Assembly (NCBI GenBank): GCA_045863395.1
Contig: BTVJ01000117.1
Location: 1-20,104 of the forward strand
Direction of reading: 5' to 3'
DNA: 20,104 nt
Origin: Myxococcales bacterium
GTDB lineage: Bacteria > Myxococcota_A > UBA9042 > JABWCM01 > BTVJ01
The notes beneath the pieces were generated by a model. The model ran no database searches and had not been told where the DNA came from. It saw only the letters and a program-made list of their open reading frames with translations. A program made the position numbers and the translations under genes. Positions 1 to 20,077 of this stretch are shown piece after piece (position 1 is the stretch's first letter; every line of letters begins with the position of its first letter).

Positions 1-87
1 CCGCCCGAAGGCGGCCATGAGGGGCGTGCAGCTATTTGTTGCTGACCCTGTCAGTGGGAGCCATCAAGACGCGGCCGTGTCGGGAGG

Positions 88-126
88 ATAAACGACGAGA
101 GGCCGAACCTTGCGGTCCGGCCTCTC
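88..126 (-). terminator. Probable intrinsic terminator of the minus-strand ncRNA unit
   Basis: Minus strand 126..97 reads GAGAGGCCGGACC-GCAA-GGTTCGGCCTCTC: a 13-bp stem with one G.U pair (it would be an A.C mismatch on the plus strand) and a GNRA loop. It is followed by GTCGTTTAT, a weak U tract. Confidence 0.6.
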
Positions 127-128
127 AA

Positions 129-1072
129 CGAGATTGATTGGTGATGGCGACGACGGGCCCCGTGGCCTGCCCCTCTTCAAAGCGTCTACGAACATGAAGT
201 CGAGCCAGCGCAATGCGCTGCTCCTCCTCTCCTGCAGTTCATCCGTCCTTCGATGTGTCTGGCTCGCCTGTCGTAGCGCCTCGGTGGCTTTGGCGCTCCC
301 TCTCGGTCCCTTCGCGCGAGGCGTCGGGCTTCGAGGTATTCCTTCAGGCGGCTCGGGCTAACCAACGGCGAATTGGAAGCCCGTCCATCCATGGACTTGG
401 ACCCTGCTTCAGAGTATCACCTCACGTCGCTGCACAGAACCACTCGACCGTGATCGAGCGATGCTCGCGGGAGCGTCCTGCGCGCGCTCTCCTGAGGTTG
501 GCGTTTGCGCCCCTTCAGCGCCTTTACAACATTGCCGAGCCACGTGCGCTTCGTCTCCGCCGCTCCCCCGAAGGGTCTCGACCAAGTTCGTCGCGCCAGC
601 CAGCCAGCTCCCATCCTCTCGGAGGGCAGCTCGCAGACTCTCCCGAGCTTGCCAGTCTCGGGCTTCGATGCGTCCACAGGTTTTCTCAACCTCTCGACGC
701 CTTGCTCCCAGCAGTGCCGCCCCGGCCTTGTCTCATGCCGGTTTCGCTCTTGGGGTTCGCTGTCCTTCAGAGGGTTTCCCTCCAACGCCGCCGACGAGGT
801 CGCACCTTGCGATGCGTCTTCTCCTCTCGGAGTCGCCTGCCCCTCCTGGCGTTGGCCGTGCCATTTGCCTGCGATTGCGACAAGCGCTATCGCCGACGGG
901 CGCCGGCTGCCTTCAGGGGTGTGAGCGTGCGTGGAGTCCGTTCCGCGCCGAGGCGTGGTTTAGGTGCCTGGCTTGGTCGATCCTCTCTTGGACTTTCTGG
1001 GGTCGTCCTTATCTCGGTTCTCAAAGAGCTTCGAGTGTCGGACGGGGCAACGAGGTTGCCGCCGTGCCATCT
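129..1072 (-). ncRNA. Candidate large (~0.9 kb) highly structured non-coding RNA, class not recognised
   Basis: No credible CDS. Ends pair: CGAGAT 1016-1011 with ATCTCG 134-129, and GACGAC 1007-1002 with GTCGTC 154-149. Seven non-crossing helices are each interrupted by a GAA/ARG-type 3x3 loop. GNRA/UUCG hairpins occur on the minus strand (832-821 GAGA, 816-801 GCAA, 575-566 UUCG). It has its own promoter and terminator. Boundaries are approximate. Confidence 0.75.
1018..1060 (-). promoter_or_regulatory. rrn-like boxB hairpin plus boxA-like antitermination element
   Basis: Minus strand: hairpin GGCAAC-CTC-GTTGCC (1060-1046), then GCTCTTTGAGAA (1029-1018), resembling E. coli rrn boxA TGCTCTTTAACA. 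Confidence 0.55.
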
Positions 1073-1079
1073 GCTGTGC

Positions 1080-1108
1080 ACTGTAGGCCAGACTGCCGGG
1101 TCCGTAAA
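1080..1108 (-). promoter_or_regulatory. Sigma70-type promoter driving the candidate ncRNA
   Basis: -35 TTTACG (1108-1103), 17-nt spacer, -10 TACAGT (1085-1080), with an AT-rich tract upstream (~1126-1150). Same geometry as four other promoter-like sites in the window. Confidence 0.6.
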
Positions 1109-1183
1109 CCCTTGGCGCGTCGACGAAGTGAAAAGCTATTTAGATTCAACGAGTTGATCCCGTGACACCAGGCGCGCACAGTT

Positions 1184-1390
1184 TCGTCCACACCCTGTCC
1201 ACAGGATCAAGCTCGCTGAAATTGCAGCGGTTCCACCCCGCCTGATCGCGGCCCACCAGCAACCACGCGGATTTGCGATTCTCCACACCTGTGGACAACC
1301 GCCGCGTGGATGAAATTGCGCCGATTCTTGCTGGATTCAGGAGGCAATCCACGGAAACAAGAGAATCAACGAGGCGGAGAATCGTTCACA
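1184..1390. promoter_or_regulatory. Cluster of DnaA-box-like 9-mers
   Basis: TCGTCCACA 1184-1192, CTGTCCACA 1195-1203, TTCTCCACA 1279-1287, TTGTCCACA (minus) 1290-1298, TCATCCACG (minus) 1305-1313, CAATCCACG 1345-1353 and TCGTTCACA 1382-1390, compared with consensus TT[A/G]TCCACA. The region is intergenic and lower in GC. Confidence 0.55.
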
Positions 1391-1434
1391 GGACCATCTC
1401 TGTGATCACGGTGAAATCCAGGAAAATCCGACGA

Positions 1435-2766
1435 TCACCGCCTGTCGCTTGACATGCTGAGGGGATCGACGGACAGCGCCTCCAGGAGGTCCATCGCGGC
1501 CAGGTCACGCTGGAGCCGTGCGCGAACGAGCTCCGTCTCCGCTGTGAACAGGGCGACGTCTGCGTCGCTCACCTCCAGCGAGGTCGCCTCCCCCAGGTCG
1601 GCCCGCGCGTGGACGAGCCCGTACTGCTCGAGAGCCACGTCACGCTGGCGCTCCGCCGTGGCGACCGTCGCGATTGCGGCCTTCAGATCCAGCGCCAGCC
1701 GCCGCACGTCGCGGGCGAGCGCTTTCTCTGCGCGGTCCAGCGCCAGGGCGCCGATGCGCTGCTCTGCGGCGGTCTCTTCGATGTCCGCGTAGCGCGCTCC
1801 GCCATCGTAGACGAGCCACTCGGCGACGAGGCGGATGTCCCAGCTATCGGTGTCGCCAGCGATGCCCGCGCTCTCGGATGCCTGGTAGTTGAAGACGACG
1901 CTCAGCTTGGGGAGCATGGACCACCAGGCGCCGTCCGCCAGGTGCTCGCTTGCAAGGAGGCGAGCCCGGGCGGCCACCAGCTCGGGGCGCTGGGCCGCGG
2001 CCTCTGCGATGGTCGCATCGGCCGGCACGACGACGGTCCGCGACGGTGCCTCCACGCGGACCGCCGTGTCCGCGTCCGTCAGGAAGCGCAGCAGCTCGAG
2101 GAGGGTGTCGCGCACGTTCTCCGCGGCGAGCAGGTCCCGCTGGGCCTGGAGCAGCACCAGCTCCGCGCGGCTCACATCGATGGGGATGCCCACCTCCCCG
2201 TCCAGCCGGACTCGCGCGGTCTCCAGGGACACCGTGGCCTTGTCGACGTTGCGCCGCACCACGGCGACCAGCATGTCCGCAGCAGCGGAAGACCAGTAGG
2301 TGCGGGCGGTCTCCCACAGAATGGCGCGCCTCACGGCCTCCGCATCGGAGCGGGCTGCCCGCAGCGCCTCGTAGCTCGCCTGGATGCTCTTGATCGCCCG
2401 CGCATCGACGAGCTGCATGGACGCGGACATCGTCGCGGTGAGGTCGTCCTGGCGCGTGATGATCCGCCCCCCGAAGGCGACCTCCTGGTCGCGGTGGACG
2501 TACTGCCCTTGCAGGCGGAGATTGGGCTTGAAGGAGGCCCAGGCGCGGTCCCGCCGCGCCGCCGCCTGGGTGGCACGCTCCGTGGCGGTCGCGATGTCCT
2601 GGTTGGCCCGTGCGGCCCGGGACAGGGCGTCATCGAGCCGCAAGAGGGTGGCTTCGGCGGACGTCGCCAGCAGCGCCTGTGGCACCGCGTCGGGCTGAGC
2701 ACTCGCCGAGGGAGCAGCGAGCGCCACCGCCCACAGGATGAGCTTGGAGAGAGGACGTGCGTTCAT
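1435..2766 (-). CDS. TolC-family outer membrane efflux protein
   Basis: 443 aa with a signal peptide. Two OEP-like halves show the typical patterns LDDALSRAARAN...FKPNLRLQGQY and AAAQRPEL...LPKLSVVFNY...W.VYDGG...GEATSLEVSDA. Confidence 0.9.
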   Translation of the reverse strand: MNARPLSKLILWAVALAAPSASAQPDAVPQALLATSAEATLLRLDDALSRAARANQDIATATERATQAAARRDRAWASFKPNLRLQGQYVHRDQEVAFGGRIITRQDDLTATMSASMQLVDARAIKSIQASYEALRAARSDAEAVRRAILWETARTYWSSAAADMLVAVVRRNVDKATVSLETARVRLDGEVGIPIDVSRAELVLLQAQRDLLAAENVRDTLLELLRFLTDADTAVRVEAPSRTVVVPADATIAEAAAQRPELVAARARLLASEHLADGAWWSMLPKLSVVFNYQASESAGIAGDTDSWDIRLVAEWLVYDGGARYADIEETAAEQRIGALALDRAEKALARDVRRLALDLKAAIATVATAERQRDVALEQYGLVHARADLGEATSLEVSDADVALFTAETELVRARLQRDLAAMDLLEALSVDPLSMSSDRR

Positions 2767-2859: not shown

Positions 2860-5469
2860 TCACTCGAACTTGAGGGAGTCCACCAGGATGGCCGTGTCGT
2901 AGATGCTGTCTCCGGCGTCCGTCGTGAAGAACTTGAGGGTGATGGGGCCCGCACCCGCGAAGGTGGACACGTTGGCCGTCGCCTGCTGCCACTGGGTGCT
3001 GTGGACGTCGCCCTGATCAAAGGACAGGTCGCTCGGCGTGAGGGGTACCGCCTTGGCTCCGCACCCTGCGCATTGGTTCGCGGGGCACAGGTCGTCGACC
3101 CGGACGTCCACGGTGGACAAGGTCCCCTGCTCTCCCTGGATGGACGCCTGGAACGTGTCCTGGTACTCGGAGCCGCACCACTCCAGGAACTCCTCCGAAT
3201 AGAACTTCCAGTAGAAGCTGAGCTGGGTCTTGCCCGACGGGATGCAGAACGTCTGTCTCAGCTCGCCGGTCTGGACGGTATAACCCATGCCGGTAGAGAT
3301 GATGCCCATGAACTTGCCGAGCACGGGCAGCGCGGCACCGAACTGGGAGATGACCCGCCCGTCCCCTTGGATGTCCCAGCCGATGGAGTTCCCCTTCTCG
3401 AAGTCGGCGTTGATGATGTCGGACTCGTTGATCGACAGGTTGGAGGCCCCGAACAGCCGGAAGAACGAGCCCTCGTGGTCCGGGTCCTGCTTGGACACGG
3501 CTGCCGCGCCCGCCGGGAGCTCCAGCTCCAGCATGTTGTTGAAGAAGTCGAGGCCCCGCTCCTTGGCGAACGTACTCGTGACCACGCCGGAGAAGCCCGC
3601 GATGGCCTTGGCGCCCGCGCCATAGAGCTCGCGGGCCAGCGTGCCGTTCCAGAGGGAGCTGCACGCCCCCAGGTAGACGAGGCTGTCGGGGAAGGGCTTG
3701 TTGTTCGCGTGGTGCGAGAAGAAGGACGGGAGCACGCCCCACTTGCCGCGGCCGTTGATCGCGACGCGCCCCATCTTGGCGTCCACCTGGGTGTTGTCCA
3801 GGCAGTAGCCGCTGGCGCTCGTCCCCTGGGCGTTGGTGAAGATGCACTCCGCGTTGCCGCCGCACTTGTTGTTGGCGTTGTCGCACGCCTGGACCGCCTG
3901 CATGAGCTTGGCGCACTCCACGGGCTCGCCGGTCCAGAGCACCTCCTGGTTGCCGGAGTGGTCCCACCGATAGCGGGCCTTGGCGTCGGCCGACAGCCCC
4001 CCGAACAGGGCGTCACCATGGGTCGCGATGGCGGCGATGCCCTTCTGGTGCAGGGTCCGGAAGGCTGCGAGGTCCGCGTGGACGTCCGTGCGCTCGTCCA
4101 CCGCGAACTTGGGGCAGCTCTTGCTGCGCAGCGATGACGCGATCTCGGGCGTCTCGTCCACCCCTTGGAGCTCCTGCGCGAAGGGGGAGAGCACCGCCAC
4201 GGAGCGGCTCTGGATGGGGACGCCGCCCAGCGCCGCGGACGGGACCGTCGTATAGCCCGGAGCGCCGCCGCCGCGGGTCCCGGGGGCGCTGCCGTCCACC
4301 GCCGCGAGGACCCCCGAACCGAAGGCAGCCCACACCCCGTTGCCGATGGGGCTCTTGCCCGAGGAGACCACCGACGGGTTCGCCTGGAGGGACGCCAGGG
4401 CCGCGTCCTGGGCGACCGCGGCGCCTTGCGCCCACGCTCCGTCGAAGGCGGCCTGGGCGGCCTGCGCGGCGCCGAGGACGGCCTGGCACTCCTGACCGGT
4501 GAAGTGCTGGAGCGCGTCGACGGTGATCACGTCCGACCAGGCGTTGAAGCCGGCCCCCCCGTCCGCCGGGATCACCTTGACCCGCACGCGGAACCAGAGC
4601 GTCTCGGGCGTCGGGTGCGTCACGGACAAGCGCACCGAGAACACGCCGTCCCCCGGGACCTCGTCGCCGGAGGTCGCGAAAGCGCCATTGTCGTGCATCT
4701 TCCAGACGGCCACCTGGTTGCCGGACGCGTCCACCTGGATCAGCTCCGCCGTGCTCGGGTCGAAGTTCGGGTAGAGGCTGATCGGGATCGTGAAGAACAG
4801 CTCGGTCTTCTCACCCACCCAGATGGAGGGCGGGCGCGCCACAGGGGGGCCATCGAAGTCGAACTGGGGGTTGTAGGTGATGCGGACGTGGTCGGTGACG
4901 GTGCTGCCGTCCGCGCCATGGGCAGTCACGGTGATCTCGTTGTCGCCCACGGTCAGGTTCAGCGGCGGGGAGCCCCAGAACGGGGAGCCGGCGCCCTCGA
5001 CGGTCTGGCCGCAGGAGCAGACGACCGAGATGGACGAGGCGTTGCCGAACACCAGGCCGTTGATGCTGACCACCGCGTTCTGGATGGCCACCGAGTCGGC
5101 GCTCGACGGGCCAATGATCTTCACGCCCAGCTCGGCCGCGGGGAACTCCTTGCCTCCGACGCCGGGAGTGGAGCTGGCGTCGCCCGTGGGGAGCGTCCCA
5201 CCGTCCGTGGAGCCCCCGCCGGTGCCTGCATCGGCCCCGCCTGTGCCGCCGCCCGTCCCGTCGCCGCCCGTGCTGCCGCCGTCGTGGGTGGGGCCGCCGC
5301 CGAAGCCGGGTCCCATGGAGCCATCCTGCTCCGTGGCGCCCGTCCCGTCGCCCCCGCTCCCGCCGCCTGAGCCTTCGTCGGCTCCCGGGTCATCGCACCC
5401 GCCGAGCAACACCCCGAGCGCACCGGCGAGCACCACCGCTCGCCATGACCACATCACGCGCAACTTCAT
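2860..5469 (-). CDS. Large multidomain lipoprotein: Gly/Thr linker, Ig-like domains, caspase/CHAT-like (clan CD) domain, C-terminal beta-sandwich resembling choice-of-anchor L
   Basis: 869 aa with lipobox LLGGC. Motifs: HDNG...GDEVPGDGVFS (choice-of-anchor X-like), IATHG and VYLGACSS followed by LARELYGAGAKAIAGF, and FYSEEFLEWCGSEYQDTF...DAGDSIYDTAILVD. Domain names assigned by eye. Confidence 0.75.
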   Translation of the reverse strand: MKLRVMWSWRAVVLAGALGVLLGGCDDPGADEGSGGGSGGDGTGATEQDGSMGPGFGGGPTHDGGSTGGDGTGGGTGGADAGTGGGSTDGGTLPTGDASSTPGVGGKEFPAAELGVKIIGPSSADSVAIQNAVVSINGLVFGNASSISVVCSCGQTVEGAGSPFWGSPPLNLTVGDNEITVTAHGADGSTVTDHVRITYNPQFDFDGPPVARPPSIWVGEKTELFFTIPISLYPNFDPSTAELIQVDASGNQVAVWKMHDNGAFATSGDEVPGDGVFSVRLSVTHPTPETLWFRVRVKVIPADGGAGFNAWSDVITVDALQHFTGQECQAVLGAAQAAQAAFDGAWAQGAAVAQDAALASLQANPSVVSSGKSPIGNGVWAAFGSGVLAAVDGSAPGTRGGGAPGYTTVPSAALGGVPIQSRSVAVLSPFAQELQGVDETPEIASSLRSKSCPKFAVDERTDVHADLAAFRTLHQKGIAAIATHGDALFGGLSADAKARYRWDHSGNQEVLWTGEPVECAKLMQAVQACDNANNKCGGNAECIFTNAQGTSASGYCLDNTQVDAKMGRVAINGRGKWGVLPSFFSHHANNKPFPDSLVYLGACSSLWNGTLARELYGAGAKAIAGFSGVVTSTFAKERGLDFFNNMLELELPAGAAAVSKQDPDHEGSFFRLFGASNLSINESDIINADFEKGNSIGWDIQGDGRVISQFGAALPVLGKFMGIISTGMGYTVQTGELRQTFCIPSGKTQLSFYWKFYSEEFLEWCGSEYQDTFQASIQGEQGTLSTVDVRVDDLCPANQCAGCGAKAVPLTPSDLSFDQGDVHSTQWQQATANVSTFAGAGPITLKFFTTDAGDSIYDTAILVDSLKFE

Positions 5470-9181: not shown

Positions 9182-9299
9182 GGGGGTCAAGTATACTCAA
9201 TTCTCATATCCCGCGACGCCCTGCCCACGCGCGCGGGCAGGGGGGGGTCAAGTATACTCAATTCTCATATCTCGCGACGCCCTGATCACGCGCGCGGGC
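9181..9299 (+). repeat. Two tandem copies (61-bp period) of the left REP-like end
   Basis: GGGGGGTCAAGTATACTCAATTCTCATATCYCGCGACGCCCTG..CACGCGCGCGGGC at 9181-9238 and 9242-9299, with 3 mismatches between copies. Confidence 0.95.
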
Positions 9300-10343
9300 T
9301 ACGCTGCGCATCAGGCCAGCTAGCGAGAAGCCATGCGGGCCCGCCAGGCGTCCTTCCATTCAATCGCCTCGGCGCTCAGCCCGACCTTCGCCGCACGATG
9401 GCAGATGTTGGCCACCTGGCGCGGCGACATGTCGAGGGCCTCGGCCACGTCCCGGTAACGGAGGCGCGGACACTGCGCCAGTGCCCAAGCGGCGAAGCGA
9501 CGGCAGGGATTGGCTCGAGCCCCGCGCACGGTTGAGCGGAGCTCCGCCACGGTGGCCCCCGTGATGTCCGCCACGGTTGCGAGCAGCTCTTCCGTCGAAG
9601 CGTCACCCGCGGACGCCTGGCGCTGGGGCTCCTCGGCCCGCTCCCGGTCACCGCGCAGCCGCCACCCGGTGTCCAGCTCCAGATCCGGGGGCCACTGTGC
9701 CCGCCCGTTCCAGAAGTGGCCGACGAGGTCGTGGAGCTTCTTTCCGCCACCGGCCAGCGAGCGTATGGCAGCCGTAGTCAGAAACGGCGGTGGCGTCTCG
9801 AGGCCGACGAGCGCACGGTGGCTGGTCCAACAGTCCGCGTCGGGGCGCGTCGCCAGGTGAGCCCGCAGCGGGTTGAGGTGGATGTATGCGACCAGCGTGA
9901 TGAGATACGCCTCATCTTCTACGAGCTGGCTCCGGAACCGCCCACGAAACAGGGGCCCGTCCCAGGAGCACACCCGGTTGAGCCGCTGCGTGTAGGTGCC
10001 GTTGAGGTGCCGCATCGCGCGCGAGAGGTTGCCATGCACCGACCGCACCAGGAGGTGGTAGTGGTTGGGCATCAGCGCGTAGGCGTGGACCTCGATCCCG
10101 TGCTGCCGGACCGTGTCCTCGAGGGTCTCGAGGAGCAGCGTACAGTGGGAGCCTTCCGTGAAGATGGGCGCACGCCGCGCGCCCCTGTGCATCACATGGT
10201 GCCATGCTCCCGGATAGTCGATGCGTGGTTGTCGTGCCATGTCGCGGGAGCATGCAGCAGACCGCGCCAATTGAAAAGTGAGAATTGAGTAGGCTTGACC
10301 CCCTCAGCTTGAAAAAAGTGAGAATTGAGTAGGCTTGACCCCC
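9183..10343. mobile_element. RAYT-REP locus: transposase gene bracketed by 2+2 inverted REP-like repeats, between convergent fhs and parC
   Basis: Left copies GGGGTCAAGTATACTCAATTCTCA and right copies (reverse complement) GGGGTCAAGCCTACTCAATTCTCA enclose an HUH-Y1 transposase gene. Confidence 0.85.
9320..10240 (-). CDS. REP-associated tyrosine transposase (RAYT, IS200/IS605-superfamily HUH Y1) with C-terminal DnaA-domain-IV/TrpR-like HTH
   Basis: MARQPR...WHHVMHRG, LMPNHYHLL (HUH), GPLFRGRFRS, YIHLNP (catalytic Tyr), WTSH. C-terminal LLATVADITGATVAELRS...RYRDVAEALDMS. ATG 10240 is preferred, giving 306 aa. Confidence 0.92.
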   Translation of the reverse strand: MARQPRIDYPGAWHHVMHRGARRAPIFTEGSHCTLLLETLEDTVRQHGIEVHAYALMPNHYHLLVRSVHGNLSRAMRHLNGTYTQRLNRVCSWDGPLFRGRFRSQLVEDEAYLITLVAYIHLNPLRAHLATRPDADCWTSHRALVGLETPPPFLTTAAIRSLAGGGKKLHDLVGHFWNGRAQWPPDLELDTGWRLRGDRERAEEPQRQASAGDASTEELLATVADITGATVAELRSTVRGARANPCRRFAAWALAQCPRLRYRDVAEALDMSPRQVANICHRAAKVGLSAEAIEWKDAWRARMASR

Positions 10344-10345
10344 TC
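10274..10345 (-). repeat. Two tandem copies (40-bp period) of the right REP-like end
   Basis: AAAAGTGAGAATTGAGTAGGCTTGACCCCCTC is identical at 10274-10305 and 10314-10345, and inverted relative to the 9181/9242 copies. Confidence 0.95.
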
Positions 10346-12853
10346 CTCCGGGGGGCGTTCCCGATGCTCCGCTCCCCCGTTGGAGCCACCGGAGGTGCTC
10401 GGGCCCGCCTCGGTCACGGGCTCCAGCTCGGGGAGGACCGCGACGAGCCGCTGCTTCACCTCCAGCAGCGTGAAGGCGTTGCCGTCGCGAGTGGTCGTGC
10501 GCAGGAGGGCCAGGTCGAGGGGGTGGCGCGAGCCGTCCGCAAGGACGGCCACCGCGGGCGGCGGCTCCACGCCGAGGCACAGCACCTCCACGATTCGGTG
10601 CGGGTTCTTGAGGAGCCGCTTGAGGCTGCGGATGCCCTTCCCCGCCCGGAGCTGCGGGTTGTACTCGGCCAGGGGGGTGGCCTTCGCCTTGCCCTCCGTC
10701 GTGATGACTGCCACGCGACGGCTCGCTTCTCCTTCAGGCGACACGACGAGCAGGGCCGTCGCTACCCTGTCACCCCGGTCGAGGCCGATGCCCCGGACAC
10801 CCTGCGCGGCCCGCCCCTGCACGGCGATGTCGTCGGCAGCGAAGCGGATGGCCTGCCCCAGGGTCGTCACGATGAGCAGATGCTCGGCCCCGCCCGTGCG
10901 AAGCACCCTCGCCACGCCGTCGCCCGTGCGGAGCCCCATGGCGATGATGCCGCTCGACCGGGCCGCGTCCAGGTCGCCGAGCGCCACGCGCTTCACCATG
11001 CCCTGCTCGGTGACGAAGACGAGCGACTCCTCGCCGCCGAAGTCGTCGACGGCGTGCATCGCGACCACCGCGTCGTCTTTGCCGAAGGGCACCACGTTGA
11101 CCAGCGCCGTGCCCGCGTCGCCCCACTTGTGGTCGGGGAGCTGGTGCACGGGGATGGTGAAGCAGGTCCCTCCGCGGGTGAGCACGAGCACCTTGTGGGT
11201 CGTGTTGGTGCGGGCCGCCCACCGCGTGTAGTCCCCCTCGCGAGCCCCCGCGTCGCGAAGGGTCTCACCGCTCGCCCGGAAGGACGCCATGGACGACCGG
11301 CGGATGTAGCCGCCCGCGGTGACGCCGACCACGACCTCTACGGGCTTGACCACCGCCTCCAGCGTGACCTCCAGGGTCCGAACCTGGGCGTGGATCTCGG
11401 TGCGCCGGTCATTCCCAAATGTCGCGGCGACGGCGCGGAGCTCCCTCTCAACCACCGCCCGCAGCTTCCGCTCGTCCGCCAGGATGGCCTCCAGGCGCGC
11501 TATCTCTTTGGAAAGCGCGGCCTCCTCCTCCCGGAGCTGGAGGATCTGGAGCCCGGTGAGCCGGTGCAGACGCAGGTCCAGGATGGCGTCGGCCTGGGCC
11601 TCGCTGAAGCCGAAGCCCTCGACGAGGTTGTCCCGGGCGTCGGCGCGGTTGTCCGAGCCGCGGATGGTCGCGATGATCTCGTCGAGGATGTCCACGGCCC
11701 GGATCAGGCCCTCGACGATGTGGATTCGCTCGCGCGCCTTGGCCAGATCATGCTCGCTGCGGCGTCGGACGACGAGCACCCGGTGGTCCAGGTAGGCGAG
11801 CAGCAGGTCGCGGAGGCCCATCTGCCGAGGCGTTGCCTCGTGGATGGCCACCATGTTGAAGTTGTAGTTGATCTTGAGCTCGGTCTTCTTGAGGAAGACG
11901 GCGAGTACACCCTCGGGATCCACCGCCTTGGAGAGCTCGATGACGATGCGCATGCCCTCGCGGTCCGACTCGTCGCGCACGTCGAGCACGCCCTGGACCG
12001 TCTTGTCCGTGCGCAGGGCGTCCATGTCCGCGACCAGCCTGGACTTGACCACCCCATAGGGGATCTCGGTGATCACGACGAGCTGCTTGCCGTCCCGCTG
12101 CTTCTCGACGACCCAGCGGGACTCGAGCACCACCTTGCCGCGGCCGGTCTCGTAGGCCTCGCGGAGGCCCTCGGCGCCCATGAGCACGCCACCGGTCGGG
12201 AAGTCCGGGCCCTTGACGTGCTGCATCAGGTCGCTCACCCCGAGGGACGGATCCCGCAGCAGGGCGACCGCGGCGTCCGTGACCTCCCGCAGGTTGTGGG
12301 GCGGGATGTCCGTCGCGAAGCCCGTCGAGACCCCCGCCGCCCCGTTGACCAGGAGGTTCGGGAAGCCGCACGGCAGGACGACCGGCTCCAGCTCCTTCTC
12401 ATCGAAGTTGGGGCGCCACTCGACGGTGTCTTTCTCCAGATCCCGGACCAGCTCCATGGCCACGCCCGCCAGGCGCGCCTCCGTGTACCGCATGGCGGCG
12501 GCCGGATCGTCGTCGATGGAGCCGAAGTTGCCGTGGCCGTCCACCAGCGGGTGCCGCATCTTCCACGGTTGGGCCAGGCGCACCAGGGCCTCGTAGATGC
12601 TCTGGTCCCCGTGCGGGTGGTAGTTGCCCATCACGTCGCCGACGGTCTTGGCGCACTTGCGGTAGGGTTTGTCCGGCGTGTTGCCCGCGTCCGCCATGGC
12701 GTAGACGATGCGTCGCTGGACCGGCTTCAGCCCGTCGCGGGCGTCCGGGATCGCCCGGTCCAGGATGATGGTCTGGGCGTAGCGGCCGTAGCTCTCGCCC
12801 AGCTCCGTCTCCAGGCGGACGTCGCGCACCCGCGGGCCCCGCTCCTCGGTCAT
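10304..12853 (-). CDS. parC: DNA topoisomerase IV subunit A
   Basis: [32 protein letters not shown] (catalytic Tyr) and a beta-pinwheel CTD. There is no canonical GyrA box in the first blade ([13 protein letters not shown]). The N-terminus ([14 protein letters not shown]) is ParC-like. Confidence 0.85.
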
Positions 12854-14847
12854 TGCGCAGCCTCCTCGACCACTCCGGGAGTCGTGTCACGGTCCAGCTC
12901 GAAGTCCTCGTCGAAGCCCGGCTCGTCGACCGCCTCGGGCGCCTCGTCGCGGTCCACCCCAAACCGGACGTTGCGCGCCAGCCACTTGCGCCGGAGGTCC
13001 GCGTCCTCGCCCATCAGCACGCGGAGCTGGTGCTCCGACGCGGCGCCGTCCTCGATGCTGACCTGGAGCAGGGTGCGGGTCTCCGGGTTCATGGTCGTCT
13101 CCCAGAGCTGCTCTGCGTTCATCTCGCCGAGGCCCTTGTAGCGTTGCACCGTACAGCCGGTCCCGCCCACCTCGATGGCGGCCTGCATCTCTTCCTTGGA
13201 CCAGCAGTAGGTCGAGGTCTCTGCCCGCCCACGCCGCTTGGGCGCGTCGACCTTGAACAGCGGCGGCTGGGCGATGAAGATGCGCCCCGCGGCGAGCATC
13301 GGCTTCATGTAGCGGTAGAAGAAGGTGAGCAGCAGGCACCGGATGTGCGCGCCGTCGTCGTCGGCGTCGGCGAGGACGATGACGCGCCCGTAGTTGGACT
13401 CCTTGATGTCGAAGTCCTTGCCGACGCCCGCCCCGACTGACTGGATGATGCTCAGGATCTCTTTGTTCTTCAGGATCTTGTCGAGGGCCGCCCGCTCGGT
13501 GTTCAGGGGCTTGCCGCGCAGTGGCAGGATGGCCTGGATGCGCCGATCCCTGCCCTGCTTGGCCGAGCCTCCGGCCGAGTCCCCCTCGACGATGAACAGC
13601 TCGCACTCCTCGGGCTTGCGGCTCGCGCAGCGCGTGAGCTTGCCGCCGAGCGAGGTGTGTGACGTCGCCGTCTTGCCCGTGCGCGTGAGGTCCCGCGCCT
13701 TGCGCGCCGCGTCCCGGGCGTTGCGCGCGAGCCCCGCCTTGTCGATGAGCTTGCGGGCGACGTCCGGGTTCTCTTCGAGGAAGCGGTCCAGGTGCTTGGC
13801 GACCACCGCGTCGACCGCCGCCCGCGCCTCGGGGTTGCCGAGCTTCGTCTTGGTCTGCCCCTCGAACTGGGTCTCGGTCATGCGCAGCGACAGGACCGCG
13901 GTCATGCCCTCGCGCAGGTCCTCGCCCGCCAGGTTCTCCTTCTTCTTCCACAGGCCCATGCGGCGCGCGTACTCGTTGGTCACCCGCGTGTGCGCCGTGC
14001 GAAAGCCCGTCTCGTGGTGGCCGCCCTCGGTCGTGCAGATGCAGTTGACGAAGCTGACCAGGCTCTCCGCGTAGCCGTCGTTGTACTGGAGGGCGACGCT
14101 CACCTCGATGCCGTCCGCGGTGTCCGTGAACACGACGGGATCGTGCACCGGCTGGGAGCCCTCGTTCAGGTACTCCACGAAGGCGCCCGCCCCGCCGGGG
14201 TACACGAAGACCTCCTCCCGGCGCTCGGCGCGGCGGTCCGTCAGCTTGATCTGGAGGCCCGGGTTGAGGAAGGCCATCTCCCGAAAGCGGTCGGCCAGCG
14301 TGCGGAAGTTGAGCTCCGTCGTCTCGAAGATGGACGCGTCCGGCTGGAACCGCACCGTGGTGCCCGTGCGGCGCGCCGTCCCCCGCTCCTCCATGGGGAC
14401 GGCGATGTGGCCGCCGCGCTCGAAGCGCCCATAGACCAGCTTGCCGTCGCGGGCGATCTCGTACTCGAAGGCGCTGGACAGCGCGTTCACCACCGAGGCG
14501 CCGACCCCGTGGAGGCCCCCCGAGACCTTGTACGACTCGTTGTCGAACTTGCCGCCCGCGTGGAGCTTCGTGAAGATCAGCTCCGGCACCGGGATGCCCG
14601 CCGTCGGGTGGAGCCCGATGGGGATGCCGCGCCCGTCATCCCGCACCAGCACCCACCCGCCCTGCTCGAGCACGACGTCGATGCGGGTGCAGTGCCCCGC
14701 GAGCGCCTCGTCGACCGCGTTGTCCACCACCTCGTAGACCAGGTGGTGGAGGCCCCGCGGCCCGGTGGAGCCGATGTACATGCCGGGCCGCTTGCGCACG
14801 GCCTCCAGCCCTTCGAGCACCTTGATGTCGCGCTCGGTGTAGCTCAC
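12850..14847 (-). CDS. parE: DNA topoisomerase IV subunit B
   Basis: [17 protein letters not shown] ATPase motifs ([24 protein letters not shown]), [21 protein letters not shown] and [11 protein letters not shown] start with GGAGG RBS. ATGA overlap with parC. Confidence 0.85.
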
Positions 14848-15748: not shown

Positions 15749-16096
15749 ATGAAGACCATGCGCACCGCCATCGCCACCCTGTCCCTGCTCGCGCTGACGG
15801 GCACGGCCCTCGCGGCGGCCCCGTCCGAGAGCCTCGCCGACCGGTACAACGCCCAGCGCGACGCCATCGAGGCGGCCGTGGACGCGGGCGCGCTCAGCGC
15901 AAGGGAGGCGCAGAGCCTGTACCGCGAGCAGCGCATGTTCCGCATGCAGTACAGCCAGTTCGGGAGCGACGGCATCAGCGCCGACGAGGGCATGGTCCTG
16001 GAGGGCCAGCTCAACGCGATCCAGCAGATGATCGATGCCCACGGCGAGGCCGCGACGGTCAGGTCGATGCTGGGGCCATCGCCGCAACAGCCCTGA
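15749..16096 (+). CDS. Small secreted helical protein of unknown function
   Basis: 115 aa with AAGGAGG RBS and a signal peptide ending TALA. The pattern QRDAIEAAVDAGALSAREAQSLYREQ...SDG recalls a widespread small secreted protein type. Confidence 0.8.
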   Translation: MKTMRTAIATLSLLALTGTALAAAPSESLADRYNAQRDAIEAAVDAGALSAREAQSLYREQRMFRMQYSQFGSDGISADEGMVLEGQLNAIQQMIDAHGEAATVRSMLGPSPQQP

Positions 16097-16102
16097 GGAC
16101 GC

Positions 16103-16131
16103 TTGCCGCACCCCGGATCGCCGGCTATCAT
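16103..16131 (+). promoter_or_regulatory. Sigma70-type promoter for the large Ig/vWA lipoprotein
   Basis: TTGCCG (16103-16108), 17 nt, TATCAT (16126-16131). Supports a start codon downstream of 16131. Confidence 0.5.
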
Positions 16132-16172
16132 GCGTGCGTTGCGCCCAACGCCCCATGGTGGAGCCCCTCGTC

Positions 16173-19100
16173 ATGTCACGGATCTCCCTCGGCCTGCTCG
16201 CCCTGCTCGCCCTCGGCGCGTGTGGCGGCCGTGACGGCGGGGACTCCGGCGGCGGAGGGAAGTTCGGGACGTTGGGGGACGTCCAGCTCCAGGTGACTCC
16301 GAAGTCCGTGTCCTTTGGGAACATCAGTCAGGGCAAGAGCGCCAGCGCCACGGTGCGCATCACCCACGCAGGCACGAGCGGAGCGCTGACGTTGCGCGCA
16401 GCACGGCTCGAGTCCGCCAGCCCCGAGATCACGGCGACCCTGCCGCCAGACACCACGCTGGGGCCGGGCGAGAGCGTGGAGCTCGCGGTCCACTACGTTG
16501 CCGCGGACGGGGTCGCAGACGCGGCGACGATCTTCATCGACCACGACGCGAGCGTCCCGAGCCCCCTGGCCATCCCCGTCGTCACGGGCGACGTGGCCGG
16601 CGTGCTGCGGGTCTCGCCGCAGCAGATCGACTTCGGCGCCGTGACCACCGGAGCCCACTCCGACCGGGTTGCCACCGTGACGAACGTCGGTTCCGGGAAC
16701 GTGCAGGTGACCGGCATGACCCTGGAGGGAGCCACTGACTTCTCCCTGACGCCGCCGGTGCTTCCGGCGGTGCTGGCGCCCGGTGGGTCTCTGAGCGTCG
16801 GGCTGCGCTACACGCCGACCTGGTGGGACGCGGACAGTGCGACGCTGGTGGTCACCGCGGACGGCGCGAGCGTCAGCGCCCCATTGGTGGGCGTAGAGAT
16901 CGGGCCGAAGGTGGTGGTGTCGCCCGCCAAGGTGGACCTGGGGAGCGCGCAGGTGGGCGAGGAGGTGACGCGGGCGTTCAAGGTGCTGTCGCAGGGCAAC
17001 GCGCCGCTGTACGTGCAGGAGCTCCGCCTGCTGGAGGGCGCCGAGCCGGGTCTCACCCTCGTCGGGGCGACCGAAGACGCGACCGTCGCGCCAGGCGAGA
17101 AGCTCGAGGCAACGGTTCGATTCAAGCCGACGCGGGCCCTCGAGCCGGACAGCCTCGACCCCATCGGGGTCATCCGGGTGGTGTCGGACGACCCGCTCGA
17201 GCCGCAGATCGACGTGCCGGTGTTTGCGTGGAGCGGCTACCCCATCCTGGCCGTGCTGCCCGCAGAGCAGGTGCACTTCGGCATCGTCGCCCAGACCATC
17301 CGCATCGAGCGATCCCTCACGCTGGTCAACCAGGGGTTCGCGCCCCTCGATGTCACGGAGGTCCGCCTCACCGCCGCGACGACGGCGGAGTTCGAGATCG
17401 TTGGAGACGCGACGTTCGGGCCCGTGGCGACGCCACCCGCGCCCGCGTGGATTCCGCCCGGTGGCTCCGTGGAGCTCAAGGTCGGCTTCACCAACTTCGG
17501 CGCAGCGGAAGGGGAGGCCCACGGGGGGCTCGCGATCCACTCCAGCGACGAGGAGCGCCCGGTCTGGGTCGTGGACCTGTTCGCGCTTCGCGCGGGCCCG
17601 CCCGAGTGCAAGCCGGTCATCGTGCCCGCGAAGCTCGACTTCGGGCCCCTCTCCGAGGGCTCGAGCCGGGTGTCCGCCGTCAACATCAAGAATGAAGGCA
17701 ACGGGTTCTGCACCTTCGAGGCGGCGCGCGTCGTCGGCTGCACGGCGCCGTTTCCTCTGATCTTCGAGTGCGAGGAGGGGACGACCTCTCCGTGGTTCTC
17801 GGTCGTGTCGGCGCCGGCAAGCGTCCACGCGGGCATCGGCCCGAAGGAGACGGCGACCATCCAGGTACAGTTCGAGGCGCCGGCGCTGGGGATGAACGAG
17901 ACCTGGGTCGACGTGCGAGGGCTCCTGCAGGTGGACGTGTCCGATCCCCATGCGGGGGACGCGGTCGCCACGCTGCCCGCCCCGTTCACGCCCGAGCTCG
18001 AGCCCGTACCGAATCTGCTCGGGGCGAGCGCGCTGGGGCTCCTGTCGGTCAAGCCGTCCAAGGTGGCGTTCGGCCCGGTCACTCTCGGGTGCAAGTCGCA
18101 GACGCGGGTGATCACCGTCGCGAACAAGGGAGAGGCGCCCCTCTGGGTAGACGACATCACTCTGGAGGGGTGTGGGCCCGAGGTGAAGATCGTCGAGCAG
18201 CCACCCCTGCCCCTGGAGCTCTGGTCGGCGAATCCGGCCGAGATCAAGGTGGCGTACGGCCCGCAGGATCTCGGCGCCGACGCCTGCTCCCTCGTGATCA
18301 CCGCGGGGGGGCAATCGGCCACGGTGTCGCTCACGGGCTCGGGCACGCTGGAGACGCACGTAACGGACGTCTTCGACAAGGTCTTCGACGGAGTGGACGT
18401 GCTGTTCGTGGTGGACGACTCCGGCAGCATGAGCGAGGACCAGGAGAATCTGGCGTCCAACTTCGGGGCGTTCCTGGCCGTAGCCAAGAGCTGGGGCGTC
18501 GACTTCCACCTCGGGGTGGTGACCACCGACGTGGAGGACCCGAAGAAGGCGGGGCGGCTGCAGGGGGAGCCCAAGTTCGTGACGCCGCAGGACGCGCAGG
18601 CCTTTGCGCAGAACGTCCTGGTCGGGACGAGCGGCTCGGGCACGGAGCGCGGCCTCGAGGCGGCGCGTCTGGCACTCTCGCCGCCGCTCACCGACGACTC
18701 GGGCACGCCCTGTTCGGCCGACTCGGGCTGCGCCGCACCCATGAAGTGCGTAGCCGGAGTCTGCGGCGGCCCGAACCGTGGCTTCCTGCGGGACACGGCG
18801 GCGCTCCACGTCATCTTCGTCAGCGACGAGGAGGACCAGTCCCCCAAGGCCCTCAGCTCCTACATCGACTTCCTCCTGGGCCTGAAGGGCGCAGGCTGGG
18901 GTGAGCTGGTCAAGGCGCACGCCATCGTGGGCACCAAGGCCGTCACGTGCGGCGCAGACATCGGGCAGCGCTACATCGACGTGGCCGACGCGACCGGTGG
19001 CAAGGTGGCGAGCATCTGCGACCCCGACTTCGCAGCCGCCCTCGGAGACCTCTCCGGCGGCATCTTCGGCGCGCAGTACAAGTACCACCTGTCGCGATAC

Positions 19101-19265
19101 CCCGACCCCACGACGCTGAAGGTGACGGTCAGCGGCAAGCCCTGTACCAGCGGGTGGACCTTCGACGCTGCAAACGTGGCGGTCGTCTTCTCTCCGACGT
19201 CAGCGTGCATGCCGGCCCCCGGCGACGTCGTCAGCATTGCTTACGACGCCATGTGCTTCCCCTGA
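16173..19265 (+). CDS. Large lipoprotein with six ASH/choice-of-anchor-D-like Ig repeats and a C-terminal vWA domain
   Basis: MSRISLGLLALLALGAC lipobox. Six V.P...[DH]FG.V-type repeats, each followed by an I.N.G...L.V-like strand. MIDAS motif DVLFVVDDSGSM, then ERGLEAA and FVSDEEDQS. Confidence 0.85.
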   Translation: MSRISLGLLALLALGACGGRDGGDSGGGGKFGTLGDVQLQVTPKSVSFGNISQGKSASATVRITHAGTSGALTLRAARLESASPEITATLPPDTTLGPGESVELAVHYVAADGVADAATIFIDHDASVPSPLAIPVVTGDVAGVLRVSPQQIDFGAVTTGAHSDRVATVTNVGSGNVQVTGMTLEGATDFSLTPPVLPAVLAPGGSLSVGLRYTPTWWDADSATLVVTADGASVSAPLVGVEIGPKVVVSPAKVDLGSAQVGEEVTRAFKVLSQGNAPLYVQELRLLEGAEPGLTLVGATEDATVAPGEKLEATVRFKPTRALEPDSLDPIGVIRVVSDDPLEPQIDVPVFAWSGYPILAVLPAEQVHFGIVAQTIRIERSLTLVNQGFAPLDVTEVRLTAATTAEFEIVGDATFGPVATPPAPAWIPPGGSVELKVGFTNFGAAEGEAHGGLAIHSSDEERPVWVVDLFALRAGPPECKPVIVPAKLDFGPLSEGSSRVSAVNIKNEGNGFCTFEAARVVGCTAPFPLIFECEEGTTSPWFSVVSAPASVHAGIGPKETATIQVQFEAPALGMNETWVDVRGLLQVDVSDPHAGDAVATLPAPFTPELEPVPNLLGASALGLLSVKPSKVAFGPVTLGCKSQTRVITVANKGEAPLWVDDITLEGCGPEVKIVEQPPLPLELWSANPAEIKVAYGPQDLGADACSLVITAGGQSATVSLTGSGTLETHVTDVFDKVFDGVDVLFVVDDSGSMSEDQENLASNFGAFLAVAKSWGVDFHLGVVTTDVEDPKKAGRLQGEPKFVTPQDAQAFAQNVLVGTSGSGTERGLEAARLALSPPLTDDSGTPCSADSGCAAPMKCVAGVCGGPNRGFLRDTAALHVIFVSDEEDQSPKALSSYIDFLLGLKGAGWGELVKAHAIVGTKAVTCGADIGQRYIDVADATGGKVASICDPDFAAALGDLSGGIFGAQYKYHLSRYPDPTTLKVTVSGKPCTSGWTFDAANVAVVFSPTSACMPAPGDVVSIAYDAMCFP

Positions 19266-19282: not shown

Positions 19283-20077
19283 ATGCAGCAGCACGAGATC
19301 ACCGGAGCCCCAGCCGCCTCGGCCCTCGCGGGGGCAAGGTCTCAGCAGGTCTTTCTGGCGCTCGCGGCCACGCTGATCACCTCCCTGGTGCTGGCAAACG
19401 TGGTCGGCGTCAAGCTGTTCCGTTTCGAGCTGGACCTGGGACCGGTTGGGGTCGTGCCCGTCGAGCACACGGCTGGCATGCTGCCATTCCCCATCACCTT
19501 CCTGCTCACGGACCTCCTCAACGAGTATTGGGGCAAGCGAGCCACCCGCTACGTGACGTTCGTTGCGTTCGCCATGGCCGCGTTCGCGTGGGGAGTCGTG
19601 ACTGCTGCCCGCGCGCTGCCAATCCTCGAAGGGATCCCCGGCACGGCGACCCAGGCTGCCTTCGACGAGATCTTCGGGGCGTCGTCGCTGATGCAGATCG
19701 CCTCCATCGGCGCCTTCCTCGTCGGGTCGCTGCTCGACATCCACGTGTTCGGGGTCTTCAAGCGCTTGACCGGGGGACGCATGGTGTGGCTCAGAACCAC
19801 GGGCAGCACGGTGATCTCCCAGCTCTTCGACAGCTTCGTGGTCACCTTCCTCTTCTTCGTCGCCCTCCAAGCCGCGACCGGTGGGGAGGCGGCTCCCTTG
19901 GACTTCGTCGTTCGCACGGCGCTGACCGGCTACGTCCTGAAGTTCGTCATCGCGGTGGCGCTCACGCCGGCCGTGTATGCCGGCAGGGCCCTCCTGCGGC
20001 GAGTCTGGGGGCTTGAGCCCGAGCCCGGCCCCGTGGGGGTCAAGTATACTCATATCTCATATCCGCGAGAGAAGTGA
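19283..20077 (+). CDS. Queuosine precursor transporter (YhhQ/VUT family)
   Basis: Multi-TM protein with LANVVGVKL, PFPITFLLTDLLNEYWG, AFLVGSLLDI, WLRTTGSTVISQLFDSF and YVLKF...LTP..Y. The stop codon lies inside the REPIN. Confidence 0.9.
   Translation: MQQHEITGAPAASALAGARSQQVFLALAATLITSLVLANVVGVKLFRFELDLGPVGVVPVEHTAGMLPFPITFLLTDLLNEYWGKRATRYVTFVAFAMAAFAWGVVTAARALPILEGIPGTATQAAFDEIFGASSLMQIASIGAFLVGSLLDIHVFGVFKRLTGGRMVWLRTTGSTVISQLFDSFVVTFLFFVALQAATGGEAAPLDFVVRTALTGYVLKFVIAVALTPAVYAGRALLRRVWGLEPEPGPVGVKYTHISYPREK

What the first reader, a model, noticed from the sequence alone, without database searches (positions are those of the whole stretch)
129..1072. Candidate undescribed ~0.9 kb ornate ncRNA with three domains radiating from a central junction
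Seen in sequence (minus strand): the two ends pair (GACGAC 1007-1002 with GUCGUC 154-149; CGAGAU 1016-1011 with AUCUCG 134-129). Inside, three long-range helices sit back to back and divide almost the whole RNA into domains: D1 993..762, D2 755..510 and D3 497..172, with 6- and 12-nt linkers. All proposed helices nest without crossing. G.U pairs and GNRA/UUCG loops favour the minus strand. Overlapping ORFs are Arg/Ser/Pro-rich and unrecognisable. Inference: a large structured ncRNA in the size class of OLE/GOLLD/ROOL that does not look like rRNA, RNase P, tmRNA or an intron.
Basis: partly seen in the sequence, partly recalled or inferred. Interest (0 to 1): 0.92.

Follow-up and report, generated by a model that had tools for sequence, protein, structure and literature searches.

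The report
Large modular RNA of Myxococcota bacteria
This stretch is a stand-alone gene for a folded non-coding RNA of about 930 bases, one of an uncatalogued family in Myxococcota bacteria that is built from up to ten copies of one unusual helix joint; its job is unknown.

Summary
The element is real. Window 1072-142 (minus strand) is a structured ncRNA of about 930 nt. It has no Rfam match, and RNA-library contigs from four studies cover it. Homologues occur in four Myxococcota classes: 57 of 107, 33 of 56, 19 of 151 and 3 of 18 genomes searched, 1-6 copies each. Another 117 of 121 JGI pattern hits are homologues. New here: the RNA is built from one repeated joint, a 3x3 purine loop whose outer pairs swap A·A for G·G. 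Full-length members have ten such loops in four domains; this copy has eight, having lost one domain. Members run from 0.9 to about 3.2 kb, sit behind sigma70- or sigma54-type promoters, and have no conserved neighbour gene or ORF. Some dispersed copies are 96-97% identical over exactly the transcript. Best guess (0.45): a self-folding RNA particle in which the loops act as repeated packing joints. Main rival (0.3): a multivalent platform for an unknown protein. No function is shown.

The parts
1080..1108 (-). sigma70-like promoter: -35 at 1108-1103, 17-nt spacer, -10 at 1085-1080; predicts a start at 1073-1072
   Evidence: Read by eye; 8 of 12 consensus matches, below the scanner's cut-off, so one search listed none. 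Clearer sigma70 or sigma54 boxes sit at the same place in homologues.
142..1072 (-). the ncRNA (about 931 nt)
   Evidence: Covariation; RNA-library contigs at >=99% identity span 142-1072, 167-1055, 160-1046 and 173-1054 in four studies.
1046..1071 (-). P1 closing stem, 5' strand (1071-1059 pairs with 156-143; 1055-1046 continues with 167-158)
   Evidence: Pair probability about 1.0. In 46 sequences (45 homologues plus this copy) own-end duplexes average -44.1 against -31.1 kcal/mol for swapped ends.
143..167 (-). P1 closing stem, 3' strand
1004..1044 (-). P2, conserved 5' hairpin (GUCC/GGAC base)
   Evidence: Probability 0.94-1.0. Same 4-bp base in most homologues, conserved but without significant covariation.
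994..1003 (-). 10-nt remnant where most homologues carry a fourth domain (D0, about 170 nt, two loop modules)
   Evidence: A 5'-domain profile hits the homologues but not this copy; alignments. Inferred: deletion between two repeated motifs.
762..993 (-). Domain D1, with loop modules H1a (989-987/768-766) and H1b (914-912/847-845)
507..760 (-). Domain D2, best-conserved core: modules H2a (751-749/516-514) and H2b (695-693/677-675), hairpin 741-722 with a conserved A-rich loop
   Evidence: 22 of 26 model pairs change on both sides, 0 of 500 shuffles as high
169..502 (-). Domain D3: modules H3a (493-491/178-176), H3b (410-408/233-231), H3c (392-390/251-249), H3d (332-330/305-303, degenerate here); the arm near 483-432 is where homologues carry insertions of up to 2.2 kb
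86..127 (-). intrinsic-terminator-like hairpin 127-96 with a short U-rich tail
   Evidence: also the only notable sub-threshold Rfam match (BjrC68, 24.5 bits against a cut-off of 39)
1184..1298 (.). DnaA-box-like 9-mers upstream of the promoter (two with 1 mismatch at 1279 and 1298-1290; others with 2)
   Evidence: enriched upstream of homologues, 55 found against 11.3 in shuffles over 47 upstream regions. The DnaA label rests on a recalled consensus.

Best explanation
A stand-alone, stable structural RNA that folds by itself into a compact modular particle, probably also joining with copies of itself. Shown: the secondary structure. Four domains (three here) radiate from one junction closed by a long end-to-end stem. 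Each domain is built from pairs of one module: two adenines, 4 bp, a 3x3 purine loop with A·A or G·G outer pairs and a free middle position, then 4-5 bp. Inferred: the homopurine pairs are shape-equivalent (trans Watson-Crick type) and bend the backbone or widen the groove. The conserved adenines and GNRA loops dock into neighbouring modules, so the ten loops act as repeated RNA-RNA joints. Long insertions hang outside the core, like rRNA expansion segments or the GOLLD/ROOL linkers. The particle would serve as a scaffold or store, dosed by gene copy number and by sigma70 or sigma54 promoters. Its cargo is unknown.
For: Outer loop positions are A·A or G·G in 551 of 616 and 557 of 615 cells, against 30 and 30 mixed A·G cells (63 genomic sequences, 10 loops). 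In 43 further sequences the counts are 344 and 346 of 409. A·A/G·G swaps recur on the tree: 8, 11 and 8 joint changes against 1.4, 2.0 and 0.8 expected. That means shape is conserved and base identity is not. An A sits five or six bases before the loop on the C-ANG strand in 82-100% of sequences at 9 of 10 loops. One inter-domain signal: a D1 linker base tracks a D2 base pair, 3 joint changes against 0.4 expected. No conserved neighbour among 108 flanking ORFs. No CsrA, Hfq, Ro60 or vault match in this genome; 6, 1 and 0 of 107 class genomes have CsrA, TROVE and vault over the cut-off. Two genomes hold dispersed copies 96.8% and 96.1% identical over just the 995-998-nt transcript, with unrelated flanks, as expected if copies must stay compatible. 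GOLLD and ROOL set the precedent of protein-free cages held by A-minor contacts around a variable linker (PMC12286853, passages).
Against: No kissing loop or pseudoknot appears among the 65 pairs at E<=0.1 (47 Watson-Crick, 5 homopurine, 13 other), whereas GOLLD and ROOL cages use covarying kissing loops. A whole domain can be lost: this copy lacks D0, and a second subfamily lacks D0 and H3b. That fits a rigid cage poorly. The two copies in this genome are only 55% identical. The 2.2-kb insertion of L085 has 24 cUUCGg on the sense strand against 1 on the other, yet does not fold better than shuffles in 300-nt windows. No 3D structure, oligomer or phenotype has been observed. The pair geometry is inferred from isostericity, and 10.1101/098723 (passages) says A:A and G:G trans W:W pairs do not generally covary.
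Confidence: 0.45

Rival explanations
1. A multivalent protein platform or sponge. Each loop widens the groove for a basic helix of one unknown protein, as the HIV RRE does for Rev, and the RNA titrates or organises 8-10 copies.
For: One site is repeated ten times and the number varies (10, 8, fewer). Copy number is 1-6 per genome. A sigma54-type box lies upstream in 7 of 47 sequences, 0.06 expected. At the Rev site only the backbone is read, so A:A and G:G can swap there (10.1101/098723, passages).
Against: No candidate partner: CsrA, Hfq, Ro60 and vault are not found in this genome and no flanking gene is shared. A sponge does not need a conserved four-domain junction or conserved adenines at fixed spacing.
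Confidence: 0.3
2. A store or sensor for a small ligand or metal, with one pocket per loop.
For: Ten equivalent purine loops. Sharp-turn purine pairs are reported with bound cations and at the vitamin B12 aptamer site (10.1101/098723, passages).
Against: No expression platform and no metabolic theme among the neighbours. Free A·A/G·G swaps argue against base-specific ligand contacts.
Confidence: 0.1
3. A ribozyme or selfish element that spreads through an RNA intermediate.
For: Patchy, multi-copy distribution with changing neighbours. Near-identical copies end at the transcript's ends. One JGI contig (L224) is circularly permuted at the closing stem. Most large bacterial ncRNAs of known function are ribozymes (PMC10861870, passages).
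Against: Only 16 of 900 columns are >=97% conserved, with no catalytic-looking cluster. No group II domain 5 match in Rfam. No reverse transcriptase, nuclease or transposase among 108 flanking ORFs. In the pair read in full, each copy has its own different promoter at the right spacing, which fits gene conversion better. No joints in the four runs laid (contigs only).
Confidence: 0.08
4. Not an RNA gene: a protein-coding gene or a DNA element such as an origin.
For: A 314-codon ORF overlaps it on the plus strand, and its 30-65-codon matches to homologues carry no stops. DnaA-box-like 9-mers lie upstream.
Against: No codon periodicity in the core (0.26, 0.29, 0.27). Anchor distances fall 16, 14 and 20 on the three frames. 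No Pfam hit. Strand-specific folding, compensatory changes and G·U bias.
Confidence: 0.02

Closest known systems
GOLLD and ROOL RNAs (RNA-only nanocages; PMC12286853, passages seen)
   Same: Size class (GOLLD often over 800 nt), ornate multi-domain fold, no known protein partner, tolerance of a long variable insert.
   Different: No Rfam match. Chromosomal in Myxococcota, not in phages or tRNA islands. No covarying kissing loop or pseudoknot found. Built from ten copies of one internal-loop module. Multi-copy, and up to about 3 kb.
OLE and raiA RNAs (PMC12286853, PMC10861870, passages seen)
   Same: Stand-alone chromosomal structured RNAs of unknown biochemistry.
   Different: No sequence or structure match; different phylum; no conserved adjacent partner gene; larger and internally repetitive.
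CsrB/RsmZ and CrcZ sponge RNAs (recalled, not read here)
   Same: Many copies of one site in a stand-alone RNA; paralogues; some under sigma54.
   Different: The sites here are internal loops in a conserved nested fold, not GGA hairpin loops or A-rich single strands; no csrA or hfq found in this genome.
Group II and circularly permuted group II ribozymes (PMC8637638, passages seen)
   Same: About 1 kb; helices radiate from a central wheel (six arms in full-length members).
   Different: No domain 5 triad or domain 6 branch; ends closed by a long stem; own promoter and terminator.
HIV RRE stem IIB purine-purine loop (10.1101/098723, passages seen)
   Same: A purine-purine pair beside a canonical pair in which G:G and A:A can replace each other.
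   Different: One site in an mRNA there; ten symmetric 3x3 loops with two such pairs each here; geometry here is only inferred.

Membership tests
Any Rfam 15 family (incl. GOLLD, ROOL, OLE, HEARO, MISL, raiA) | Covariance-model match at the gathering score | tested here: not met
   0 matches in the window; 4 weak matches in 1-1500, best 24.5 bits against 39 on the terminator; 0 at E<=0.5 in 6 homologous loci.
GOLLD / ROOL | Encoded in phages or prophages, often near tRNA islands | tested here: not met
   0 and 1 IMG/VR hits with two patterns; no blastn match in phages or plasmids; no phage or integrase family among 108 flanking ORFs; no tRNA in the window; one tRNA in 2 of 5 other loci scanned.
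GOLLD / ROOL | Covarying pseudoknots or kissing loops | tested here: not met
   None among 65 pairs at E<=0.1 in 106 sequences; invariant loops cannot show covariation, so absence is not proven.
GOLLD / ROOL | Forms a protein-free multimeric cage | not testable with these tools
   Needs cryo-EM or mass photometry.
OLE | Conserved adjacent partner gene (oapA; recalled) | tested here: not met
   Largest cluster of flanking ORFs is TolB, 5 of 110.
Group II / CP group II ribozymes | Domain 5 with AGC triad and bulge; domain 6 branch adenosine | tested here: not met
   No Rfam group II match; a loose recalled D5 pattern hit 7 of 36 sequences, not this one.
CsrB/RsmZ-type sponge | Host encodes CsrA; repeated GGA in hairpin loops | tested here: not met
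   CsrA in 6 of 107 class genomes, not in G000, against the RNA in 57 of 107; the repeats are paired internal loops.
RNase P, tmRNA, 6S | Model match, or replacement of a missing housekeeping RNA | tested here: not met
   Each has a normal gene elsewhere in G000.
Y RNA / vault RNA particles | Co-occurring Ro60 (TROVE) or major vault protein | tested here: not met
   1 of 107 and 0 of 107 over the cut-off; neither in G000. The vault search had no positive control among the 14 control genomes.
Protein-coding gene | Conserved reading frame with codon-position bias | tested here: not met

The most novel reading that the evidence does not exclude
A natural protein-free RNA particle assembled from one repeated, pseudo-symmetric joint. 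It can gain or drop whole modules, carries expansion arms that make some members longer than 23S rRNA, and in some genomes is kept as homogenised multi-copy genes like rRNA. It would be a new kind of large cellular RNA machine or compartment in Myxococcota, and the 3x3 A·A/G·G loop a new recurrent 3D motif.
Probability: 0.33. Interest if true: 0.97.

Novelty: categorically new. Interest (0 to 1): 0.88.

Why it matters
Few bacterial ncRNA classes reach 1 kb, and those with known jobs are mostly ribozymes or core machinery (PMC10861870, passages). This family spans four classes of one phylum, turns up repeatedly in environmental assemblies, and reaches about 3 kb. Its design, ten copies of one non-canonical loop, is one I did not meet in Rfam or in ten literature searches. 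It offers a direct cryo-EM target, with natural deletion variants (this copy) and expansion variants as controls. It also gives a strong natural case of A·A/G·G covariation and a possible building block for RNA design. 'Categorically new' refers to the family and its architecture; if it proves to be a cage, it would work like GOLLD or ROOL.

Tried and rejected
A kissing contact between the D0 U-rich segment and the D3 A-rich loop, complementary by eye: no covariation, best G 23 against a threshold near 44. Several cross-domain signals looked clade-linked on the tree (p 0.05-1.0) and were dropped. The two D0 outer-loop columns tested were not significant on the tree (p 0.07 and 0.32). In the four runs laid, no contig covered 1-141 or 1073-6000; these runs were found with this stretch and are contigs, so this says nothing about level or ends. 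That one run stops at 1072 and 142, one base beyond the closing stem, is only a weak hint, since adapter ends lie there. BLAST alone missed most members outside the class (18 of 401 phylum genomes, one weak hit outside the class); covariance models were needed. The origin idea was dropped because the boxes travel with the RNA gene to unrelated loci. CsrA, Hfq, Ro60 and vault as partners: rejected. L025 and L265, L267, L272, L293 were pattern hits without profile support and were left out. The G444 pair is identical over 7.9 kb, so it was not counted as gene conversion. In one search, 11 of the 57 positive genomes have only weak hits (E above 1e-9) that I did not verify; the G118 hit (29.5 bits) is also unverified. 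Ten paper searches listed no description of this family. Supplementary files were not searched, and motif lists in supplements or subscription papers could hold it. Presence outside Myxococcota was not tested with the models.

Full report
Observation. The region 129-1072 lies at the end of a contig of the window's genome, G000. It is lower in GC than the coding DNA beside it and is purine-rich on the minus strand. Rfam 15 gives no match at the gathering score. At E<=10 it gives four weak matches, the best being the terminator hairpin. The minus strand folds better than shuffles (z -3.42) and the plus strand does not (z 0.01). A 13-bp stem, 1071-1059 with 156-143, and a local hairpin, 1044-1004, take those bases.

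Homologues. BLAST found relatives in 11 of 40 related genomes and a second copy in G000. An exact-pattern scan of GTDB gave 15 loci, 14 confirmed by a profile. Their titles are Myxococcota, Myxococcales, Deltaproteobacteria or unclassified MAGs, and ten are identical to loci from genomes of the window's class. The phylum name rests on that. A covariance model of the core matched 57 of 107 class genomes, 46 of them at E<=1.5e-10, and 35 of 151 phylum genomes, 18 outside the class. A second model matched 33 of 151 and, in three other classes, 33 of 56, 3 of 18 (one weak) and 19 of 151 genomes. Copy number runs from 1 to 6. Some families had no match in those searched, for example 0 of 13 in f11. 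Phage and plasmid collections gave no blastn match.

Expression. Twenty public runs from 13 studies hold the stretch, 16 on record as RNA. I laid 4 of them, from four studies. Their contigs match at >=99% over 142-1072, 167-1055, 160-1046 and 173-1054, without gaps or joints, so the short 5' part is not an assembly error. Contigs cannot give strand, ends or level. Separately, I took the 48 whole JGI contigs of 1.0-1.5 kb left after dropping two without profile support and one permuted contig. In 45 of the 48 the core motif lies in the central 35-70% (KS p 9e-6), and many begin and end near the RNA's ends. I infer that these are transcript-bounded; the library type is not given. L227 (1621 nt) spans both ends with an insert of about 740 nt, which suggests inserts are transcribed.

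Structure. I aligned 63 genomic members by sequence alone (mean identity 50%) and scored all column pairs by an APC-corrected G-test against 30 tree-simulated nulls. This is my own test, not R-scape. I repeated it with 106 sequences and 47 nulls: 65 pairs reach E<=0.1, of which 47 are Watson-Crick, 5 homopurine and 13 other. On the core, 22 of 26 model pairs change on both sides, 0 of 500 shuffles reach that, and slid registers pair only 30-44% of cells against 96%. The ends pair too: own-end duplexes average -44.1 kcal/mol against -31.1 for swapped ends, and rank in the top three for 31 of 46 sequences. Full-length members have a six-arm junction: closing stem P1, hairpin P2, and domains D0-D3. 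This copy lacks D0 and keeps a 10-nt remnant.

The repeated module. Every domain-closing helix, and one or more inner helices per domain, carries the same symmetric loop, C-ANG-R opposite Y-GNA-G. There are ten in full-length members and eight here, seven of them canonical. Across 63 sequences the closing pairs are Watson-Crick in 590 and 575 of 616 cells. The outer loop positions are A·A or G·G in 551 of 616 and 557 of 615 cells and mixed in only 30 and 30. The middle position follows no rule. In the 43 added sequences the outer counts are 344 and 346 of 409; one loop there was fixed by the search pattern. The swaps recur on the tree. Adenines sit five or six bases before the loop at nine of ten sites. 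A second subfamily (29 sequences) lacks D0 and H3b; a strict filter found five loops there in the expected registers, plus three cross-register matches. A:A and G:G trans Watson-Crick pairs are isosteric and rarely covary, except where only the backbone is read, as at the Rev site (10.1101/098723, passages). The geometry here is an inference from that.

Size and gene context. The span from P2 to the last module runs from 831 to 3091 nt. The largest insertions, 0.5-2.2 kb, fall in one arm of D3 and hold no recognisable ORF by eye. The longest has 24 cUUCGg on the sense strand against 1 but no folding excess in 300-nt windows. Most members end in a hairpin and U-tract. Upstream, many have sigma70-type boxes by eye, 7 of 47 have a strict sigma54 box (0.06 expected), and DnaA-box-like 9-mers number 55 against 11.3 in shuffles. 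Flanking ORFs share nothing: the largest cluster is TolB, 5 of 110, and none of the 108 scanned is a mobile-element protein. No reading frame is conserved. Two genomes carry dispersed copies 96.8% and 96.1% identical over 995-998 nt with unrelated flanks. In the pair I read in full, the identity starts just after two different sigma54 boxes and stops at the U-tract. Other paralogues are far apart: 55% in G000 and 71-78% over the main blocks in G214.

Mechanism. Shown: an independent gene, a nested fold, a repeated shape-conserved joint, tolerance of module loss and of long arms. Inferred: what the joints do. I favour RNA-RNA packing into a particle (0.45). The reasons are the conserved adenines at fixed spacing, one D1-D2 tertiary signal, and the absence of CsrA, Hfq, Ro60 and vault in G000. 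Against it, no kissing loops were found and a domain can be lost. A platform for an unknown protein is the main rival (0.3). A ligand store (0.1) and a ribozyme or mobile RNA (0.08) are weaker. One circularly permuted contig (L224) is noted but may be a library artefact.

Comparison and novelty. It may work like GOLLD or ROOL but fails their model, context and pseudoknot tests. It fails the tests for OLE, group II, CsrB and the housekeeping RNAs, which G000 encodes elsewhere. Papers seen: passages of PMC12286853, 10.1101/098723, PMC10861870 and PMC8637638; all others as search listings only. Ten searches showed no description; supplements and subscription papers were not seen. Earlier scan notes held no look-alike sequence. 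Verdict: a real, transcribed, apparently undescribed class of large RNA with a repeated-module design; function open; interest 0.88.

Noticed in passing
G000:C20 about 49400-50480, minus strand (L086): Second, full-length copy of the RNA in the same genome, with all four domains, 55% identical to the window's copy, between a periplasmic-binding-protein gene and peptide deformylase.
   Followed up: partly
L224:1-1097: JGI contig circularly permuted at the closing stem, the 3' end joined to the 5' end through about 8 nt; single case, circle or artefact.
   Followed up: partly
L357/L358 and L359/L360: Dispersed paralogues 96-97% identical over only the transcript, suggesting concerted evolution.
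   Followed up: partly
L164, L165, L177, L363: Tandem pairs of the RNA gene, 0.8-3.6 kb apart, in three genomes.
   Followed up: partly
L085, 230-2500 nt after the core start: 2.2-kb insertion rich in cUUCGg tetraloop words on the sense strand, like an rRNA expansion; total RNA about 3.2 kb if co-transcribed.
   Followed up: partly
window 1140-1400: DnaA-box-like 9-mers upstream of the RNA promoter, enriched about five-fold upstream of homologues and nearly absent upstream of tRNA genes in G000.
   Followed up: partly
window 297-275, minus strand: The D3 hairpin loop departs from the family's conserved A-rich consensus, and module H3d is degenerate, in the copy that lost D0; no covariation links them.
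   Followed up: partly
window 10304-14847, minus strand: Adjacent type II topoisomerase B and A subunit genes (Pfam DNA_gyraseB, DNA_topoisoIV).
   Followed up: no
window 9320-10270, minus strand: IS200-like (Y1) transposase ORF between formate-tetrahydrofolate ligase and the topoisomerase A gene; similar short sequences by eye near 9260-9285 and 20050-20075 may be REP-like ends.
   Followed up: no
window 16035-19265, plus strand: 1076-aa lipoprotein-like ORF with several ASH/HYDIN-type Ig domains and a VWA-like C-terminal part (the latter by eye).
   Followed up: no
window 1435-2766 and 2860-5469, minus strand: Outer-membrane efflux (TolC-type) gene directly upstream of the RNA, preceded by an 869-aa secreted-looking protein with no firm Pfam match.
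   Followed up: no
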